The notes beneath the pieces are model-generated. The model had not been told where the DNA came from. It saw only the letters and a program-made list of their open reading frames with translations, and did not search any database. The translations under genes were made by a program, and so were the position numbers. Positions 23,934 to 30,284 of a stretch of DNA of 64,000 nt are shown in pieces. Positions within the stretch are counted from its first letter, which is position 1. Each line of letters begins with the position of its first letter. The DNA lies in sequence record MZ868638.1. One strand, 5' to 3'. This DNA is from Escherichia phage vB_EcoM-pEK20.

Positions 23934-24199
23934 AATTAACTCGAATCAGTATAACTGAAGAAAAGCTGGGCGAATTTTATGTTGACGAATACATGAAAGT
24001 CACGTATTTTCCATTCGTTAAAGGTGTTGGTTTTTGGGAAACTCATGTATCTCAATTAAACGAAGGCGACTATAACGAAACACATGAGAACTTTTTAGAT
24101 TTTCTTTATAATGCCGGTCTTACTGAGCTTTATATCGATATCCATGAGTTCAAACGTTTAATGGAAAAAGTGTTTCAGGCTTATTGTTTGCTCCGATAG
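23930..24199 (+). CDS. Hypothetical protein
   Basis: ORF only. Confidence 0.3.
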   Translation: MKLTRISITEEKLGEFYVDEYMKVTYFPFVKGVGFWETHVSQLNEGDYNETHENFLDFLYNAGLTELYIDIHEFKRLMEKVFQAYCLLR

Positions 24200-24271
24200 T
24201 ATCTCGTGCTTTAAGATAGGTCTCTAAATATTATGATATAATAGACCTATGAATTGAGCTAAGAGGTACTT

Positions 24272-24829
24272 ATGACCGAACAAAAACCTAAAAATAACTA
24301 TGTGAATAATAAAGAGCTTCTCGCCGCTATAATCGAGTGGAAAAAGGAGCTCTTAAATAATAAAGACCCAAACAAAATTATTCGTCAGAATGATACCATC
24401 GGTTTAGCAATTATGCTTATCGCCGAAGGCCTGTCCAAACGTTTCAACTTTTCAGGATATACCCAGTCTTGGAAGCAGGAGATGATTGCAGATGGGATTG
24501 AAGCCTCTATTAAGGGACTTCATAATTTCGACGAAACTAAGTACAATAACCCACATGCATACATAACTCGAGCTTGTTTTAATGCTTTTGTCCAACGTAT
24601 CAAAAAAGAACGTAAGGAAGTTGCAAAGAAATATAGTTACTTCGTTCATAACGTCTACGACAGTCATGACGATGATATGGTAGCGTTGGTAGATGAAACG
24701 TTTATTCAAGACATCTACGATAAAATGACGCATTATGAAGAATCCGCTTATAAAGCTCCTGGGGCTGAAAAGAAGGAAGTTGTTAGCGATTCGCCTAGTT
24801 TGGATTTTTTATATGAGGATGACAATTGA
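24272..24829 (+). CDS. 55: Late transcription sigma factor gp55
   Basis: 185 aa, near-identical to T4 gp55 as recalled. Confidence 0.9.
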
Positions 24830-25028
24830 CATCTCTAACTACTTAGAAGAACCTTTTGACGAAGCAATCCCTTATTTGGTAAAACTGTTGGGTCGTGAAT
24901 TTAAAATTAATTTTGACATCGACCCTTTGAACCCACATGACGTGTCATTTTCGATAAATGGGACTCCGGTTGAGTATGAGTTCTGTATTGAAGAGGATGG
25001 ACGTTTTTATTTTAATTTAATGAGATAA
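24813..25028 (+). CDS. Hypothetical protein
   Basis: Internal ATG of ORF 24735-25028. Confidence 0.3.
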
Positions 25029-25029
25029 T

Positions 25030-25353
25030 ATGACTACCGAGATTATTGAAAATAAAGAAGCAGAAGATGCAGTAGCTAAAATGCTACAAGAAATCCAAAA
25101 GAAAAATGAAGCTGAAGCACGTAAAAAATCCGAAAAGATTCTTAAAAAGAATCGTTTTGAACTAAACCGTCTTTATGCTCATGCTCAAGAAGCAGCAATT
25201 CAAAACAACTTCGAAGCTTACGAATATGCTATTAAGAAATCTCGGGATATTCTACGACAACCATATAATGACAAGTTAATTAAAATCCAGTGGATTACTA
25301 CTCGTCAGGCTATTGAGGACATCATTAATGGCGCTAGTTCAAACAAAGTTTAA
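25030..25353 (+). CDS. Hypothetical protein
   Basis: ORF only. Confidence 0.3.
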   Translation: MTTEIIENKEAEDAVAKMLQEIQKKNEAEARKKSEKILKKNRFELNRLYAHAQEAAIQNNFEAYEYAIKKSRDILRQPYNDKLIKIQWITTRQAIEDIINGASSNKV

Positions 25354-25746
25354 ACGTCTGAAGCTGAACGCAGGGTTCACCCTTAAATTGGGAGGTCCTC
25401 TTTGTGTTAAAATTTCTGAAAAGGAATATCACGACGGTTCTATTACAGAAATTTGTCCGCCTATTGTAAAGGCAGACCCAAAACAACTCGTGTGGGTTGA
25501 TTCATTTCAAGTTAAGAAATGGTGGAAACGATGAGAGAAATCGATTTAGGCATTTTCTGAGAGGTGCTTATGCATGACGAACATCCCGACTTCTGAAAAT
25601 TTCGATAAAATCCGTAAAGGCAAAGCAGAAAGAATGAGACGTTTTAAAGAGTCTTATGATAAAGCTAAAGCCGAAGGAACTATTACATACAAGCCCATTC
25701 GATTTAAAAGTTCAAATGAGCCTCTGTACGGTGTACTATGTGGATA

Positions 25747-25771
25747 GGAACTCTTCGGAGTTCCTTTTTTG
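25747..25771 (+). terminator. Rho-independent terminator (UUCG loop)
   Basis: GGAACTC-TTCG-GAGTTCC then T6. Confidence 0.6.
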
Positions 25772-25793
25772 CTTTATAAACGGATGATAGAAT
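25770..25793 (+). promoter_or_regulatory. Candidate MotA-dependent middle promoter
   Basis: TGCTTTA 25770-25776, 11-nt gap, TAGAAT 25788-25793, upstream of gene 47. Confidence 0.4.
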
Positions 25794-25816
25794 GAATTAA
25801 CTAATGAGGAAATAAT

Positions 25817-26836
25817 ATGAAAATTTTAAATTTAGGTGATTGGCATTTAGGTGTTAAAGCCGATGATGAGTGGGTTCAATCCATTCAGTTGGATGGAATT
25901 AAGCAGGCGATAGAATATTCTAAGAAAAATGGAATTACTACATGGATTCAATACGGCGATATTTTTGATGTGCGAAAAGCAATCACGCATAAAACTATGG
26001 AGTTCGCACGTGAAATAGTTCAAATGCTTGATGATGCTGGTATTACCCTACATACTGTTGTAGGAAACCATGATATGCACTTTAAAAATACTTTAACTCC
26101 AAACGCTTCTACTGAGCTTTTAGCTAAATATCCTAATGTTAAAGTATATGATAAGCCTACTACAGTAGATTTTGACGGATGTTTGATTGATTTAATTCCT
26201 TGGATGTGCGAAGAAAATACTGGTGAAATTCTTGAACATATCAAAACTTCATCTGCTTCTTTTTGTGTTGGGCACTGGGAACTGAATGGTTTTTATTTCT
26301 ATAAAGGAATGAAGTCTCATGGGCTTGAACCTGATTTTTTAAAGACCTATAAACAAGTCTGGTCCGGCCACTTCCACACAATCTCTGAAGCTGCTAACGT
26401 CAAATATATTGGGACACCATGGACCCTTACTGCAGGTGATGAAAACGACCCTCGAGGATTCTGGGTATTTGACACCGATGTTGAACGTATGGAATTTATT
26501 CCTAATGAAACAACATGGCATCGACGAATCACTTATCCGTTTAAAGGCAAAATCAATTATTCTGATTATACTAATCTAGCCGTACGTGTTATAGTATCAG
26601 AAATTGATTCAGAGTTGACTAAGTTTGAATCTGAACTTGAAAAAGTAGTTCACTCTCTTCGTATGGTTTCTAAAGTTGATAACAGTGTTGAATCTGATGA
26701 CGACCAGGAAATCGAGATTAAATCACTTCAAGATATCATTAAAGAATATATTGACGCGATTCCAGATATCTCAGACGAAGACAGAGAAGCGCTGGTCAAA
26801 TATTCCAACGAACTTTATATTGAGGCAACACAATGA
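25817..26836 (+). CDS. 47: Recombination endonuclease subunit gp47 (Mre11-like)
   Basis: Phosphoesterase motifs GDWHLG, GNHD; matches T4 gp47. Confidence 0.9.
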   Translation: MKILNLGDWHLGVKADDEWVQSIQLDGIKQAIEYSKKNGITTWIQYGDIFDVRKAITHKTMEFAREIVQMLDDAGITLHTVVGNHDMHFKNTLTPNASTELLAKYPNVKVYDKPTTVDFDGCLIDLIPWMCEENTGEILEHIKTSSASFCVGHWELNGFYFYKGMKSHGLEPDFLKTYKQVWSGHFHTISEAANVKYIGTPWTLTAGDENDPRGFWVFDTDVERMEFIPNETTWHRRITYPFKGKINYSDYTNLAVRVIVSEIDSELTKFESELEKVVHSLRMVSKVDNSVESDDDQEIEIKSLQDIIKEYIDAIPDISDEDREALVKYSNELYIEATQ

Positions 26837-27090
26837 CTTTAGATGAATTTAACAATGCTGGACTCAGGCTTGAAGTTGAAATGGACGTTAAAGATGATGA
26901 TGGATTCGAGAACACTATCAAGTATTGGATTGAGCCATTACGTGTTGAAGGCAATGAAGTTAAAGCAGTTCATGTCTGCACCGACTGGGCTATTGAATTT
27001 AGCTTTAATATAATGGACAACGATACTCCTGGCTCTATTCTTAAAATGGCTGAAGCGTGTATTGAGGACGCGTATAATGACGAAGACTGA
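26833..27090 (+). CDS. Hypothetical acidic protein
   Basis: ORF only. Confidence 0.3.
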   Translation: MTLDEFNNAGLRLEVEMDVKDDDGFENTIKYWIEPLRVEGNEVKAVHVCTDWAIEFSFNIMDNDTPGSILKMAEACIEDAYNDED

Positions 27091-27937
27091 CTATGAAACT
27101 CAAATTTATAAAATTCTTAAAACCTCCTTCCCTTCGTGGGAAGGACTTGATGAGTATTTAAACTTTATAAAAACTAATTCCACTAATAAAGTAAAAGGAC
27201 TGACTCAGGTTCACCATATACTACCAAAATCTATTTTTCCAGATTTTAAAACATGTAAATGGAACTTGTGTCATTTAAGTCATTATAACCATTTTATTGC
27301 ACATAGCATTTTGGCAAAAACTGGCAACCACAAGATGATTAACGCGCTTCAAAGAATGTATACCGGGCGATTTAATTTAAATTGTACAACGCATGAACTA
27401 AATAATATAGCCGAGGCGTATTCTTTAGAATTCGAAAATGTTTGTAAAGTTAATTCTATAAAAATGACATTATACTATTCCAATCAGGATAATAGAATTA
27501 AGATTAGTCAAGCTTTAAAAGCATGGTTTAAAAATCCGGAAAATTTAAAGAAACATAGAATTATGACAAGTTCAAAGGAATTTAAAGAAACCGTCTCTAT
27601 TATGACCCAAAAGTGGTTTAGTGACCCTATTAATAAACAAAAACATTTGGATGCTTGTCGTAAAATATCTAAAACAACCGAATATAGAGAATCATTATCG
27701 GCTGGAGTTTCACGCAGTTGGAAAAATCCTAAAGTTAGAGACACTCATTTGAAATCTAGAAGAAAAGGATATCATTGGGAAAATTTTGATATGCTTTACG
27801 TTGAATGGGTTAAAATGAACAAACCTAAATATGTAACTTTTTCTAAAAATTTAGTCAATTTAGGATATCCTATACAAAGTTCTTTACAGGCTTTAGTTTC
27901 TGAATTCATGAGGAAAAATTTAAGTGAAAACATTTAA
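27077..27937 (+). mobile_element. Free-standing HNH homing endonuclease gene (mob-like) between genes 47 and 46
   Basis: HNH motif VHHILPKS...N...L...H...H; C-terminal repeated WxNP...KH modules; overlaps GTG start of gene 46. Confidence 0.55.
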
Positions 27938-29612
27938 ATTAAATCGTGTTCGTTATAAAAATATAATGTCTGTTGGGCAAAATTTTATCGATATCCAATT
28001 AGATAAAGTCCAAAAGACCTTAATCACAGGTAAAAATGGTGGTGGTAAATCTACGATGTTAGAAGCCATTACTTTCGGACTTTTCGGTAAACCATTTCGT
28101 GATGTTAAGAAAGGGCAAATCATTAATAGCACGAACAAGAAAGAGCTCTTAGTTGAGCTTTGGATGGAATTCGATGGTAAAAAATACTTCATTAAACGTG
28201 GCCAAAAACCCAATATTTTCGAAATCTCCGTTGACGGTGTTCGTCTTGATGAATCTGCCAGCAGTCGTGACTTCCAAGAAGAATTTGAACGCAGCATCGG
28301 AATGTCATACGCGTCTTTTAAACAAATCGTTGTGCTTGGGACGGCAGGGTATACCCCTTTCATGGCTCTTAGCACCCCTGCTCGCAGAAAACTTGTCGAA
28401 GACCTTTTAGAAGTCGGCACACTCGCTGAAATGGATAAAATCAATAAGTCTCAAGTTCGAGAACTTAATTCCCAGGGACAAGTTCTCGATGCCAAGAAAG
28501 ATGGTATTATCCAACAAATTAAGATTTATAACGAGAATATCGAACGTCAAAAGAAATTATCTGGTGATAATGTAGCGCGTCTACAGAATATGTATGACGA
28601 CCTAGCCAAAGAAGCTCGTTCATTAAAAGCAGAAATCGAAGAAGCTAATGAGCGACTACTTAATATCGTTCTTGATGAAGACCCTACTGAGGCATTCAAC
28701 AAGATAGGACAAGAAGCATTCTTGATTAAATCTAAAATCGACTCATATAACAAAGTTATTAAGATGTATCATGACGGTGGCACATGTCCTACTTGTGCAT
28801 CACAGTTGCACCAGGGTGATCCTATTGTCTCTAAGATTACCGATAAGCTTCACGAATGTAATCACTCATTCGAACAACTTACATGTCACAGAGATAATCT
28901 GAGTGTCTTAGTGGACGAATATAGAGCTAATGTTAAGACTAAACAGGACCTTGCATCTGATATTCGTACCAAGAAACAAGCAATGATTGCCACTATTGAT
29001 AAAGCTAAGAAAGTTAAAGCTGCAATAGAACAAGCCTCAGCGGAATTTATCGACCATGCCGATGAGATAGCTTTGCTTCAAAAAGAACTTGATAAAATCA
29101 TTAAAACAAAATCGGATATCGTTCTTGAAAAATACCATCGTGGTATTATCACAGATATGTTAAAAGATTCTGGTATTAAAGGTGCTATCATTAAAAAATA
29201 TGTGCCTCTGTTCAACAAACAGATTAACCATTATCTTAAAATCATGGAAGCTGATTACGTGTTTTCTATTGACGAAGAATTCAATGAATCTATAAAATCA
29301 CGTGGTCGTGAAGAGTTCAGTTATGCTTCATTTAGTCAAGGTGAAAAGGCACGTATCGATATCGCATTGTTGTTTACATGGCGAGATATTGCTGAAAAGG
29401 TCTCTGGTGTTAGAATCAATACATTAATTATGGACGAAGTCATGGATTCCGCGACTGATTCTGAAGGTATTAAAGCTATTTCAACAATTCTTAACTCTCT
29501 AACCGATGCAAACGTGTTTATAATTAGTCACAGAGACCATGACCCACAAGCTTATGGACAACATCTTCAAATGAGCAAAGTTGGACGATTTACTGTAATG
29601 ACTGTTTCATAA
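27924..29612 (+). CDS. 46: Recombination endonuclease subunit gp46 (Rad50-like)
   Basis: Walker A GKNGGGKST, zinc hook CPTC, near-identical to T4 gp46. Confidence 0.9.
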   Translation: MKTFKLNRVRYKNIMSVGQNFIDIQLDKVQKTLITGKNGGGKSTMLEAITFGLFGKPFRDVKKGQIINSTNKKELLVELWMEFDGKKYFIKRGQKPNIFEISVDGVRLDESASSRDFQEEFERSIGMSYASFKQIVVLGTAGYTPFMALSTPARRKLVEDLLEVGTLAEMDKINKSQVRELNSQGQVLDAKKDGIIQQIKIYNENIERQKKLSGDNVARLQNMYDDLAKEARSLKAEIEEANERLLNIVLDEDPTEAFNKIGQEAFLIKSKIDSYNKVIKMYHDGGTCPTCASQLHQGDPIVSKITDKLHECNHSFEQLTCHRDNLSVLVDEYRANVKTKQDLASDIRTKKQAMIATIDKAKKVKAAIEQASAEFIDHADEIALLQKELDKIIKTKSDIVLEKYHRGIITDMLKDSGIKGAIIKKYVPLFNKQINHYLKIMEADYVFSIDEEFNESIKSRGREEFSYASFSQGEKARIDIALLFTWRDIAEKVSGVRINTLIMDEVMDSATDSEGIKAISTILNSLTDANVFIISHRDHDPQAYGQHLQMSKVGRFTVMTVS

Positions 29613-29666
29613 ACGCTTTAACACGATGTGGTTATAATGACCACATCAAATTAAATGGAGAACAAC

Positions 29667-29855
29667 ATGGAGTATTCAACTGGCCAACATCTTCTCGTTG
29701 TCCCTGAAATTAAAAAATATGTTTTGACCAATACGTTTTCAGGTGAAGAACATATTGTTACTGAACAAATGCTCAAATCTGCTTTTAAAGATGAGTATAA
29801 TAAAATAATGTCTAATCGCAATTCCGCATGGACAGTTACCGACTTCTACGAATAA
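29667..29855 (+). CDS. Hypothetical protein
   Basis: Internal ATG of ORF 29655-29855. Confidence 0.3.
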   Translation: MEYSTGQHLLVVPEIKKYVLTNTFSGEEHIVTEQMLKSAFKDEYNKIMSNRNSAWTVTDFYE

Positions 29856-29867
29856 GAGAGAAATAAT

Positions 29868-30284
29868 ATGTTTACTACTGCTAAAGGTTTCACTGCTGCT
29901 GATCTGAAAGTTACTTCTATCCGTACTGACGCTAACCCACATAACCATAATCGTGTTCGTAAAGCATGGGTCCTGCATTGTGATGACGCAAGTGCTAAAA
30001 AGCTTCAATCTCTTCCACAAGAAACTCGTTTTATGATTTATGGTTTTATTGATAACGATGTATCTGATATGTGGATTCATCTGATGCGTAAGCACTATAA
30101 AGATTCTATTGAAGCCGGCGGAAAAATCGTTCTTGATAAAGATGGTTCTGAGCGTCTGGAAGATTTCTACTGTGTTGATGCCGACGAACAACTAATTGCA
30201 GCTGGCGAAATTGTTGCTTCTAAAATTCCAGAATATATTGAATCACTGCCTGAAGCTATTAAAAAGCAAATGGTTGCTGCATAA
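29868..30284 (+). CDS. rpbA: RNA polymerase binding protein RpbA-like
   Basis: Position between 46 and 45 and size; sequence not verified from memory. Confidence 0.4.
   Translation: MFTTAKGFTAADLKVTSIRTDANPHNHNRVRKAWVLHCDDASAKKLQSLPQETRFMIYGFIDNDVSDMWIHLMRKHYKDSIEAGGKIVLDKDGSERLEDFYCVDADEQLIAAGEIVASKIPEYIESLPEAIKKQMVAA

What the first reader, a model, noticed from the sequence alone, without database searches (positions are those of the whole stretch)
27077..27937. HNH homing endonuclease inserted between recombination genes 47 and 46
A free-standing HNH gene with repeated C-terminal DNA-binding-like modules sits where T4 has 47 and 46 adjacent. Its 3' end overlaps the GTG start of gene 46 by 14 nt, so gene 46 translation may depend on it. 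This is a likely mobile insertion that could bias inheritance of the flanking markers in mixed infections.
Basis: partly seen in the sequence, partly recalled or inferred. Interest (0 to 1): 0.5.

Follow-up and report, generated by a model that had tools for sequence, protein, structure and literature searches.

The report
Mobile HNH endonuclease gene beside gene 46
This is an ordinary selfish "homing endonuclease" gene of the T4 Mob type, which has recently spread among RB69-like phages by replacing the small gene 46.1 just upstream of the recombination gene 46; the type is well known but this one has not been studied.

Summary
The ORF is real: 27077-27937, 286 aa, with a 14-nt overlap onto the GTG start of gene 46. 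It is a Mob-like HNH protein (PHROG 655, E 4e-31; T4 MobD 29% identity). H46/H47, N63, H72 and H76 are invariant in 61 relatives. Three helix-hairpin repeats lie where relatives carry NUMOD3 motifs.

T4 and RB69 have 47-46.2-46.1-46. Here the gene lies between 46.2 and 46 and replaces 46.1. It keeps the ribosome site, ATG and first 7 codons of 46.1. A GTG start for gene 46 is also normal in T4.

Mobility is well supported:
- Only 9 of about 151 RB69-like records carry the gene.
- The 887-bp cassette (27099-27985) is 99.4-100% identical among carriers, while their flanks differ by up to 12% and are closest to non-carriers.
- GC is 29.8% against 36-39% in the flanks.
- Every carrier has a variant tract in gene 46 nt 1-62. 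This is probably a cleavage-immune target.

Relatives at 45-56% identity sit at the 5' end of gene 46 in T6/T2-like, Melville-like and metagenomic phages.

Nuclease activity and the target site are inferred, not shown. Verdict: a new member of a known kind, of modest interest.

The parts
25746..25793 (+). Terminator-like hairpin (25746-25765) followed by a T4 middle-promoter (MotA-box) motif, TTTGCTTTA-N11-TAGAAT (25768-25793), just upstream of gene 47. It is the likely source of the transcript that carries 47, 46.2, the endonuclease gene and 46.
   Evidence: The same motif is present in RB69 and PNJ-6. The motif class is enriched in the window (17 against 2.8 expected). Function is inferred.
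25817..26836 (+). Gene 47 (Mre11/SbcD-like nuclease subunit), the upstream conserved flank.
   Evidence: Pfam Metallophos. Collinear with RB69 gene 47.
26833..27090 (+). Gene 46.2 (85 aa). It lies between gene 47 and the endonuclease gene, and its last 14 nt overlap the endonuclease start.
   Evidence: Pfam T4_Y03C E 5.6e-44 and PHROG 2192. Annotated as gp46.2 in RB69.
27064..27098 (+). Translation start region taken over from gene 46.1: GAGG (27064-27067), ATG 27077 and the first 7 codons (MTKTDYE). It is shared base for base with gene 46.1 of phages that lack the endonuclease. The left junction of the cassette lies at its end.
   Evidence: Alignment with RB69 and PNJ-6. Differences that separate carriers from non-carriers begin at window 27099.
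27077..27937 (+). Free-standing Mob-like HNH homing endonuclease gene (286 aa).
   Evidence: The ORF is intact in all 8 carriers examined, with at most 2 aa differences.
27099..27985 (+). The mobile cassette as delimited by comparison: the body of the endonuclease gene plus a variant copy of the first 62 nt of gene 46. It replaces the body of 46.1 and gene 46 nt 1-62 of RB69-type genomes.
   Evidence: It is 99.4-100% identical among 8 carriers, whose flanks are 88-99% identical. In the first set of 7 non-carriers, the columns separating carriers from non-carriers lie only here. A later non-carrier, WFK, carries the nt 34-62 variant, so only nt 1 and 7 stay exclusive to carriers. GC is 29.8% against 36-39% in the flanks.
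27203..27316 (+). Predicted beta-beta-alpha metal-finger (HNH) catalytic core, residues 43-80, with H46, H47, N63, H72 and H76.
   Evidence: These residues are invariant in A2 and A3. The AlphaFold models show strand 43-47, strand 64-68 and helix 69-80. Relative P0043 matches Pfam HNH in the region expected to correspond, though this was not mapped residue by residue.
27485..27760 (+). Three NUMOD3-like helix-hairpin repeats (residues 137-165, 167-198, 201-228), presumed to be DNA-binding modules.
   Evidence: Model secondary structure and the repeat motif. 15 of 50 relatives match Pfam NUMOD3. The NUMOD3 hit of P0029 aligns with repeat 1. The window protein itself has no Pfam hit.
27770..27931 (+). 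C-terminal small helical domain (residues 232-285), possibly helix-turn-helix-like.
27790..27816 (+). MotA-box middle-promoter motif inside the 3' part of the endonuclease gene (TATGCTTTA-N12-TAAAAT), 134 nt upstream of gene 46. It is a candidate promoter for gene 46 carried by the cassette.
   Evidence: A strict match lies at the same offset in the Melville homologue (L004 3678), and none is found in 46.2 or 46.1 of RB69. Protein-coding constraint could also explain the conservation. Function is inferred.
27907..27948 (+). Local RNA hairpin. It holds the GAGG ribosome site (27910-27913) partly, and the GUG start of gene 46 (27924-27926) fully, in its 5' arms. The endonuclease stop UAA (27935-27937) is in the 3' arm. 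This geometry fits translational coupling.
   Evidence: -9.7 kcal/mol, z -3.1, 1 of 200 shuffles folds as well. It is absent from the equivalent Melville, T6-type and RB69 junctions. Function is inferred.
27924..29612 (+). Gene 46 (Rad50/SbcC-like ATPase subunit) with a GTG start. It is the downstream conserved flank and the proposed target gene.
   Evidence: Pfam AAA_23 and SMC_N. The N-terminus MKTFKLNRVRYKNI is conserved at protein level across genera through many synonymous changes, so codon 1 is the real start.
27957..27985 (+). Variant tract in gene 46, nt 34-62: 11 substitutions in 29 nt relative to RB69-type genomes, giving gp46 Q12K, G19Q and P21F. The proposal is that the RB69-type sequence is the endonuclease's target and this variant is the immune allele.
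   Evidence: The variant is present in all 9 carrier records and in at most 5 of 143 non-carrier records (Fisher p 2e-11). The same G19Q and Q12K/S contrast is seen in T6-type and Melville carriers.

Best explanation
The ORF at 27077-27937 is a free-standing homing endonuclease gene of the T4 Mob (HNH plus NUMOD) type. It belongs to a lineage that specialises in the 5' end of recombination gene 46.

Proposed mechanism:
- The cassette has no ribosome site or start codon of its own. It uses those of the gene it displaced (46.1). No promoter motif lies immediately upstream, so it is probably transcribed from the middle promoter in front of gene 47.
- In a mixed infection, the enzyme nicks or cuts the gene 46 allele of RB69-type genomes that lack the cassette, probably within gene 46 nt ~30-65 (TATCAAAAYATMATGTCRGTAGGTGGRAATCC).
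- The break is repaired by recombination-dependent replication, using the cassette-bearing genome as template.
- This copies the 887-bp cassette (27099-27985) into the recipient. 46.1 is replaced, and a variant, presumably uncleavable, first 62 nt of gene 46 is installed.
- The cassette also supplies the ribosome site and GTG start for gene 46, and possibly a middle promoter. Gene 46 therefore stays expressed, probably coupled to translation of the endonuclease.

Shown here: homology, motif conservation, presence/absence polymorphism, cassette boundaries, near-identity of the cassette on divergent backgrounds, and linkage to the variant tract.

Inferred: catalytic activity, nick versus double-strand cut, the exact target, the promoter and the coupling.
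For: Family:
- PHROG 655 'homing endonuclease' E 3.8e-31 and PHROG 12434 'HNH endonuclease' E 2.7e-12.
- tblastn to T4 mobD gives 29% identity over residues 43-277, E 5e-13.
- H46, H47, N63, H72 and H76 are invariant in 61 relatives.
- The confident model (mean pLDDT 92) has a beta-beta-alpha core and three helix-hairpin repeats.
- Relatives match Pfam NUMOD3 (15 of 50), HNH (3 of 50) and I-HmuI_NUMOD-like (2 of 50). The NUMOD3 hit of P0029 maps onto repeat 1 of the window protein. The Pfam HNH hit of P0043 (residues 23-46) lies where the HH...N region is expected, but was not mapped.

Mobility:
- 9 records carry the gene against 142 RB69-like records with an intact 46.1/46 junction.
- The cassette is 99.4-100% identical among 8 carriers. 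Their 47+46.2 flanks are 88-99% identical and the rest of gene 46 is 94-99% identical.
- The window's left flank is 99.4% identical to PNJ-6, which lacks the gene, and 88.5% identical to the carrier SQ17.
- GC is 29.8% against 36-39%.
- The ORF is intact in all carriers.

Target:
- Of 191 variable columns in 1700 nt of gene 46, the 13 that separate 8 carriers from 7 non-carriers all fall in nt 1-62.
- The variant tract is in 9 of 9 carriers and in at most 5 of 143 non-carriers.
- Homologues at 45-56% identity occupy the same place in other genera. These are Melville and a metagenomic contig (between 47 and 46, with the same 14-nt overlap) and T6-, T2- and PhiZZ23-type phages. In the T6 type the element is inserted after gene 46 nt 18 and is present in 72 of about 518 records.
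- All carriers have Gln at gp46 residue 19, where most non-carriers have Gly-Gly.

Precedent: T4 MobE is promoterless. It nicks the 5' region of the neighbouring gene nrdB in phages lacking it and is inherited with flanking DNA (PMC2790892).
Against: - No cleavage or cross data exist for this gene or any of its close relatives. None was found in the searched literature.
- The window protein itself reaches no Pfam HNH or NUMOD3 threshold.
- There is no sequence match to any solved structure.
- The carrier frequency is low (about 6% of RB69-like records and about 14% of T4-like records). This is not what a freely sweeping element would show, and it is also compatible with passive shuffling by recombination.
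- The variant tract occurs without the endonuclease gene in WFK-type phages. A related allele occurs in T4 and ACG-C40. The tract is therefore separable from the gene, and its meaning as an 'immune allele' is an inference.
- T2's copy is a pseudogene, so decay does occur in this lineage.
Confidence: 0.75

Rival explanations
1. The gene is an inactive or domesticated relic. It is an intact-looking ORF that no longer homes. Its patchy distribution, and its identity across backgrounds, would reflect ordinary homologous recombination among co-infecting RB69-like phages. The variant tract in gene 46 would be a piece of donor DNA that travelled with it.
For: - Carrier frequency is low, 9 of about 151 records.
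- The variant tract exists without the gene in WFK.
- T2's homologue is a pseudogene.
- T-even genomes are highly mosaic, and the flanks are shuffled among both carriers and non-carriers.
- There is no direct evidence of activity.
Against: - All 8 copies are intact, with 0-2 aa changes and all motif residues kept.
- An 887-bp segment that is 99.4-100% identical sits inside flanks as low as 88% identical. This implies a very recent common origin and repeated transfer with very short conversion tracts, which is the signature of break-induced homing rather than random crossovers.
- The association with the variant tract is perfect among carriers (p 2e-11).
- Three or four diverged lineages keep the same position next to gene 46 in different genera.
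Confidence: 0.15
2. The enzyme is active, but its main role is competition between phages. It would damage the essential recombination gene 46 of co-infecting relatives, causing marker or genome exclusion that benefits the carrier phage. Spread of the gene itself would be secondary.
For: - The proposed target lies in an essential, conserved gene.
- About 80% of T4-like non-carriers and more than 95% of RB69-like non-carriers carry the putatively sensitive allele.
- Intron-encoded and free-standing endonucleases are known to mediate exclusion between related phages. This rests on established knowledge: SegF, SegG and I-HmuI; reviewed in PMC2988022.
Against: - This does not exclude homing. The same break yields both outcomes.
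- No fitness data exist.
- gp46 and gp47 are supplied in trans in a mixed infection, so cutting the gene would not by itself disable the competitor.
Confidence: 0.07
3. The enzyme's target is not in gene 46 but in 46.1 or at the 46.2/46.1 junction. The variant tract in gene 46 would then be incidental co-converted donor sequence.
For: - In RB69-like phages the cassette removes 46.1 entirely.
- The left junction sits in the first codons of 46.1.
Against: - T6-type relatives leave 46.1 intact and are inserted inside gene 46 after nt 18.
- Melville-type genomes have no 46.1 or 46.2 at all, yet carry the gene directly upstream of 46.
- The only element common to all four arrangements is the 5' end of gene 46.
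- The distal edge of the carrier-specific differences falls at nearly the same place in RB69-like phages (nt 62) and T4-like phages (about nt 63-65).
Confidence: 0.03

Closest known systems
T4 MobE (free-standing HNH homing endonuclease between nrdA and nrdB)
   Same: - Same protein family. The tblastn list includes a phage ORF annotated MobE (Yersinia phage phiR1-RT, 37% identity over residues 14-96), and one carrier record annotates this gene as 'MobE mobile endonuclease'.
- Like MobE, it is free-standing and apparently promoterless, and lies just upstream of a conserved essential gene.
- MobE nicks the 5' region of that downstream gene in phages lacking it and is inherited with flanking polymorphisms (PMC2790892). 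Here the carrier-specific polymorphisms likewise sit in the first 62 nt of the downstream gene.
   Different: - The locus differs (46.1/46 rather than nrdA/nrdB), and similarity to the MobE-annotated ORF is limited to the N-terminal domain.
- This element overlaps the downstream gene and supplies its start codon.
- It replaces a resident gene rather than sitting between two genes.
- No activity data exist for it.
T4 MobD (predicted HNH homing endonuclease; target unknown)
   Same: It is the closest T4 paralogue over most of the length: 29% identity over residues 43-277, E 5e-13. GenBank annotators already call the F2 and Melville copies 'MobD-like homing endonuclease'.
   Different: MobD lies in the nrdC.11/mobD.1 region (PMC2988022). 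Identity is only 29%. MobD itself has not been characterised.
I-HmuI (SPO1 intron-encoded HNH nicking endonuclease with NUMOD-type DNA-binding modules)
   Same: The architecture is the same: an N-terminal HNH core without zinc-binding cysteines, followed by an extended series of helical DNA-binding modules. Two relatives in the family alignment match Pfam I-HmuI_NUMOD-like.
   Different: I-HmuI is intron-encoded, whereas this gene is free-standing. No detectable sequence match to any PDB chain, which would include I-HmuI's structure. Fold searches did not retrieve it.
T4 SegG and SegF (GIY-YIG free-standing endonucleases causing localised marker exclusion)
   Same: The genetic behaviour expected is the same: cleavage in a neighbouring conserved gene of a related phage, with co-conversion of nearby markers. 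This rests on established knowledge, reviewed in PMC2988022.
   Different: The catalytic family is unrelated (GIY-YIG rather than HNH).
SegH and Hef (endonuclease genes that replace mobC and mobE in T4 relatives)
   Same: They are a precedent for cassette replacement at one locus in different T-even phages. The reference is cited in PMC13096335. This rests on established knowledge.
   Different: Those are one endonuclease gene replacing another. Here an endonuclease gene replaces an ordinary small gene (46.1).

Membership tests
HNH (His-Me finger) endonuclease superfamily | H...N...H motif on a beta-hairpin plus helix (beta-beta-alpha metal finger) | tested here: met
   VHH(46,47)...WN(63)L...H(72)FIAH(76). 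All five residues are invariant in 50- and 61-sequence alignments. The AlphaFold models (pLDDT 92 and 90.5) place them on strand 43-47, strand 64-68 and helix 69-80.
HNH (His-Me finger) endonuclease superfamily | Match to a curated HNH profile (Pfam PF01844 or related) | tested here: not met
   There is no Pfam hit at E <= 1 for the window protein and none in NCBIfam. Three of 50 aligned relatives do match PF01844, for example P0043 with 21.7 bits against a cut-off of 21.4, in the region expected to correspond. Membership therefore rests on transitive homology and on PHROG 12434 'HNH endonuclease', E 2.7e-12.
HNH (His-Me finger) endonuclease superfamily | Structural similarity to solved HNH nucleases | tested here: inconclusive
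HNH (His-Me finger) endonuclease superfamily | Metal-dependent DNA nicking or cleavage | not testable with these tools
   Needs biochemistry.
T4 Mob-type free-standing homing endonucleases | Sequence homology to MobA-E | tested here: met
   T4 mobD: 29% identity over residues 43-277, E 5e-13. A MobE-annotated ORF: 37% identity over residues 14-96, E 1e-6. PHROG 655, E 3.8e-31.
T4 Mob-type free-standing homing endonucleases | Free-standing gene between conserved genes, present in some close relatives and absent from others | tested here: met
   9 carrier records against 142 non-carrier RB69-like records. The junctions were resolved to the base.
T4 Mob-type free-standing homing endonucleases | Evidence of horizontal movement together with short flanking tracts (co-conversion) | tested here: met
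   The cassette is 99.4-100% identical on flanks that are 88-99% identical. The variant gene 46 nt 1-62 is linked to it in every carrier. This is indirect, population-level evidence, not a cross.
T4 Mob-type free-standing homing endonucleases | Site-specific nick or break in the cognate site of genomes lacking the gene, and endonuclease-dependent over-inheritance in mixed infection | not testable with these tools
   Requires in vivo or in vitro mapping and phage crosses.
NUMOD3 DNA-binding modules | Match to Pfam PF07460 in the repeat region | tested here: inconclusive
   The window protein has no hit. 15 of 50 relatives hit NUMOD3, with a best E of 1.3e-15. P0029 aligns end to end with the window protein (30% identity, E 3e-22), and its NUMOD3 hit at residues 120-135 falls opposite repeat 1 of the window protein.

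The most novel reading that the evidence does not exclude
The cassette may have made itself hard to lose by taking over the expression signals of gene 46. It supplies the gene's GTG start codon, its ribosome site and possibly a MotA-dependent middle promoter (27790-27816, conserved at the same offset in Melville). It also holds the start codon in a hairpin whose other arm contains the endonuclease's own stop codon. Translation of the essential Rad50-like gene would then depend on translation of the selfish gene. If so, this lineage would show a homing endonuclease becoming entrenched through regulatory dependence of its host gene, not only through homing. It would be doing so in the very gene whose product processes the breaks that homing needs.
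Probability: 0.2. Interest if true: 0.5.

Novelty: new member of a known kind. Interest (0 to 1): 0.3.

Why it matters
Free-standing homing endonucleases are a main cause of localised marker exclusion and mosaicism in T-even phages, and only a few have a known target.

This analysis defines a previously undescribed lineage specific to gene 46:
- It has members in at least three genera of T4-like phages.
- Its junctions are resolved to the base.
- A candidate target of about 30 nt is identified.
- Natural sensitive, immune-without-gene and carrier alleles are all available in sequenced phages.

That makes the cleavage and cross experiments simple to design.

It also has practical uses. It explains inconsistent database annotation of the start of gene 46, and the apparent 'loss' of 46.1 in some RB69-like therapeutic phage candidates.

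It does not change any general concept.

Tried and rejected
- **Pfam and NCBIfam on the protein:** only sub-threshold, irrelevant hits.
- **Sequence search of PDB with 7- and 50-sequence profiles:** nothing relevant.
- **Two IMG/VR pattern scans** for the two gene 46 haplotypes returned only 5 loci each, none with the endonuclease gene. They were uninformative about the association.
- **BLASTP self-comparison of the repeat region** did not detect the repeats. They rest on the recurring motif and on the model's repeated helix-hairpins.
- **Sigma-70 promoter and intrinsic terminator scan** around the gene was at background level: 13 promoter-like sites against 11.2 expected. No T4 late-promoter TATAAATA motif occurs in 24000-30000.
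- **Paralogues in the window:** none found.
- **Idea rejected: the GTG start of gene 46 was created by the insertion.** T4, RB3 and ACG-C40 use GTG without it.
- **Idea rejected: all 13 carrier-specific substitutions are inseparable from the gene.** WFK has those at nt 34-62 without it.
- **Literature searches** found no paper on an endonuclease gene at this locus.
Full report
**What is in the sequence**

The window is from an RB69-like T-even phage (genus Mosigvirus). Region 25800-29650 matches Escherichia phage PNJ-9 at 97.5% and RB69 at 93.9%.

The local gene order on the + strand is as follows:

| Gene | Coordinates | Evidence |
|---|---|---|
| 55 | 24272-24829 | position in the T-even order |
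| 47 | 25817-26836 | Pfam Metallophos |
| 46.2 | 26833-27090 | Pfam T4_Y03C, E 6e-44 |
| ORF in question | 27077-27937 (286 aa) | see below |
| 46 | 27924-29612 (GTG start) | Pfam AAA_23, SMC_N |

T4 itself has 47-46.2-46.1-46, and so do T2, RB3, ACG-C40 and RB69. The ORF lies between 46.2 and 46, not between 47 and 46.

**What the protein is**

- It matches PHROG 655 'homing endonuclease' (E 3.8e-31) and PHROG 12434 'HNH endonuclease' (E 2.7e-12).
- It is 29% identical to T4 MobD over residues 43-277 (E 5e-13).
- It matches no Pfam or NCBIfam model.
- In alignments of 50 and 61 homologues, H46, H47, N63, H72 and H76 are invariant.
- An AlphaFold model built on the 50-sequence alignment is confident (mean pLDDT 92). 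It places those residues on a beta-hairpin plus helix (43-47, 64-68, 69-80). A long helix follows, then three helix-hairpin units (137-165, 167-198, 201-228) and a small C-terminal helical domain.
- The three units share the motif S-x5-W-[FK]-x-[ND]-P-x4-5-H.
- Among the aligned relatives, 15 of 50 match Pfam NUMOD3, 3 match HNH, and 2 match I-HmuI_NUMOD-like.
- P0029 aligns end to end with the window protein, and its NUMOD3 hit falls opposite repeat 1.

**It is a replacement, not an insertion**

In RB69, PNJ-6 and about 140 other RB69-like records, the 240-bp gene 46.1 (DUF5487) occupies exactly this position.

- **Left junction.** The endonuclease ORF and 46.1 share the same ribosome site, the same ATG and the same first seven codons (ATGACGAAGACTGAYTATGAAA, MTKTDYE). 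They diverge from window 27099.
- **Right junction.** RB69-type gene 46 starts ATGAAATCATTTAAA, with the 46.1 stop overlapping it (ATGA). Here it starts GTGAAAACATTTAAA, and the endonuclease ORF reads on to the TAA inside codons 4-5 of gene 46.

I compared 8 carriers with 7 non-carriers. Gene 46 has 191 variable columns in 1700 nt. The 13 columns with no shared allele between the two groups all lie in nt 1-62. If those columns were placed at random, the chance of this is about (62/1700)^13.

The unit that differs is therefore window 27099-27985 (887 bp). It consists of the body of the endonuclease gene plus a variant first 62 nt of gene 46. The variant changes gp46 at S3T, Q12K, G19Q and P21F.

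**Evidence that the cassette moves**

- Among the 8 carriers the cassette is 99.4-100% identical. Their 47+46.2 segments are 88-99% identical and the rest of gene 46 is 94-99% identical.
- The flanks of carriers are interleaved with those of non-carriers. The window's left flank is 99.4% identical to PNJ-6, which lacks the gene, but only 88.5% identical to SQ17, which has it.
- The cassette is compositionally foreign: 29.8% GC against 36-39% in the flanks.
- Every copy is intact, with at most two amino-acid changes.

This is what recent repeated transfer with very short conversion tracts looks like.

**Where the enzyme probably cuts**

- All 9 carrier records have the variant tract.
- Of 143 non-carrier records, 138 are at least 95% identical to RB69 across the junction, so they cannot carry the variant tract.
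- The remaining 5 fall in the 90-95% band. One of them, WFK, has 46.1 and the ATG start together with the exact variant nt 34-62.
- The association gives Fisher p 2e-11.

So nt 34-62 can be separated from the gene, but the gene is never found next to the common allele. That is the expected pattern if the common allele (TATCAAAAYATMATGTCRGTAGGTGGRAATCC) contains the target and the variant is immune. WFK-type phages would then be immune without the gene, for example through a conversion tract that stopped short of it.

Other genera point to the same place:

- **Melville and a metagenomic contig.** Homologues at 55-56% identity sit between 47 and 46, with the same 14-nt overlap onto gene 46.
- **T6, PhiZZ23 and SHFML-26.** A 45%-identical homologue is present in 72 of about 518 T4-like records. 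It is inserted after nt 18 of gene 46. The ORF begins with gene 46's own GTG and six codons (MKNFKL), and gene 46 is rebuilt downstream with a new ATG.
- **T2.** Its copy has a 2-bp deletion and is a pseudogene.
- All carriers have Gln at gp46 residue 19. RB69, PNJ-6 and RB3 have Gly-Gly there.
- The differences end at about nt 62-65 in both RB69-like and T4-like comparisons.
- T4 and ACG-C40 lack the gene but have the Gln allele. Roughly 20% of T4-like non-carriers appear to share it (estimated from identity bands).

**Expression (inferred only)**

- A MotA-box middle-promoter motif preceded by a terminator-like hairpin lies just upstream of gene 47 (25746-25793). It is shared with RB69.
- No promoter motif lies directly upstream of the endonuclease gene. 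The gene uses the start signals of 46.1. It therefore resembles the promoterless cassettes described for mobE and others (PMC2790892; PMC2988022).
- A second strict MotA-box motif lies inside the 3' part of the gene (27790-27816), 134 nt before gene 46. It is at the same offset in the Melville homologue, and there is none in RB69's 46.2 or 46.1.
- The motif class is enriched in the window, 17 against 2.8 expected. However, coding constraint could explain the conservation at this site.
- Gene 46's GAGG (27910-27913) and its GUG lie in a local hairpin. The hairpin is -9.7 kcal/mol with z -3.1, and its 3' arm contains the endonuclease stop codon. The Melville, T6-type and RB69 junctions lack this hairpin.
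A GTG start is normal for gene 46 in T4. In RB69 gene 46 is already overlapped by the 46.1 stop.

**Comparison with known systems and verdict**

The closest characterised analogue is T4 MobE. It is a promoterless free-standing HNH gene that nicks the 5' region of the adjacent nrdB gene in phages lacking it, and it is inherited with flanking DNA (PMC2790892). The closest T4 paralogue by sequence is the uncharacterised MobD.

GenBank annotators already label copies of this gene 'MobD-like homing endonuclease', 'HNH endonuclease' or 'MobE mobile endonuclease'. I found no paper that describes an endonuclease gene at the 46.1/46 locus.

It is therefore a new, uncharacterised member of a well-known kind. 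The map context, and the implied novelty of the GTG start, are wrong. Nuclease activity, nick versus break, the exact target, the internal promoter and the coupling all remain to be tested.

Noticed in passing
L013 6810-7526 (phage F2); same place in L012 (G2469); L018 6203-6992 (ST0, unannotated gap): Some RB69-like phages carry a second, minus-strand 717-bp ORF annotated 'homing endonuclease' between gene 46 and 45.2. The window has no such ORF: gene 46 ends at 29612 and 45.2 starts at 29655. Gene 46 is therefore flanked by endonuclease-gene sites on both sides in this group.
   Followed up: no
L034 (phage WFK), gene 46 nt 34-62: WFK has gene 46.1 and the ATG-AAA-TCA start of gene 46, so it has no endonuclease gene. 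Yet it carries exactly the variant tract found in all carriers. It is a natural 'immune allele without the gene', and about 5 of 143 non-carrier records fall in the same identity band.
   Followed up: partly
L005 2932-3784 (phage T2): T2's copy of the T6-type endonuclease gene upstream of gene 46 has a 2-bp deletion at nt 609-610. It is annotated as two ORFs and is a decaying copy.
   Followed up: yes
L006 2932-3802 and L023 1948-2818 (T6-type phages): The T6-type homologue starts with gene 46's own GTG and first six codons (MKNFKL). Gene 46 is regenerated downstream with ATGAAATCATTTAAACTT. The element is therefore inserted inside the first codons of gene 46 and duplicates them. Each lineage takes over the start signals of whichever gene it displaces.
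   Followed up: yes
L006 868-1491 (phage PhiZZ23): A further ORF annotated 'HNH endonuclease' lies between a-gt and gene 47, where T4 has 47.1.
   Followed up: no
window 27966; L011 5167; L021 1990: GenBank records disagree on the start of gene 46. Some use the internal ATG at codon 15, others the GTG or ATG at codon 1. Protein-level conservation of residues 1-14 through many synonymous changes across genera supports codon 1.
   Followed up: partly
window, 17 sites (for example 5602, 18464, 20709, 25770, 27792, 29074, 36583, 41762, 60688): The T4 middle-promoter pattern TGCTTHA-N11-13-TANNNT occurs 17 times against 2.8 expected from shuffles, mostly on the + strand. This suggests a usable map of MotA-dependent promoters in this phage.
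   Followed up: no
L037 366-3193 (metagenomic contig SRR20950736_282): A more distant relative (P0004, 39% identity over the N-terminal half) sits next to a DNA polymerase B gene that contains an intein. This is a different homing site for the same N-terminal domain family.
   Followed up: no
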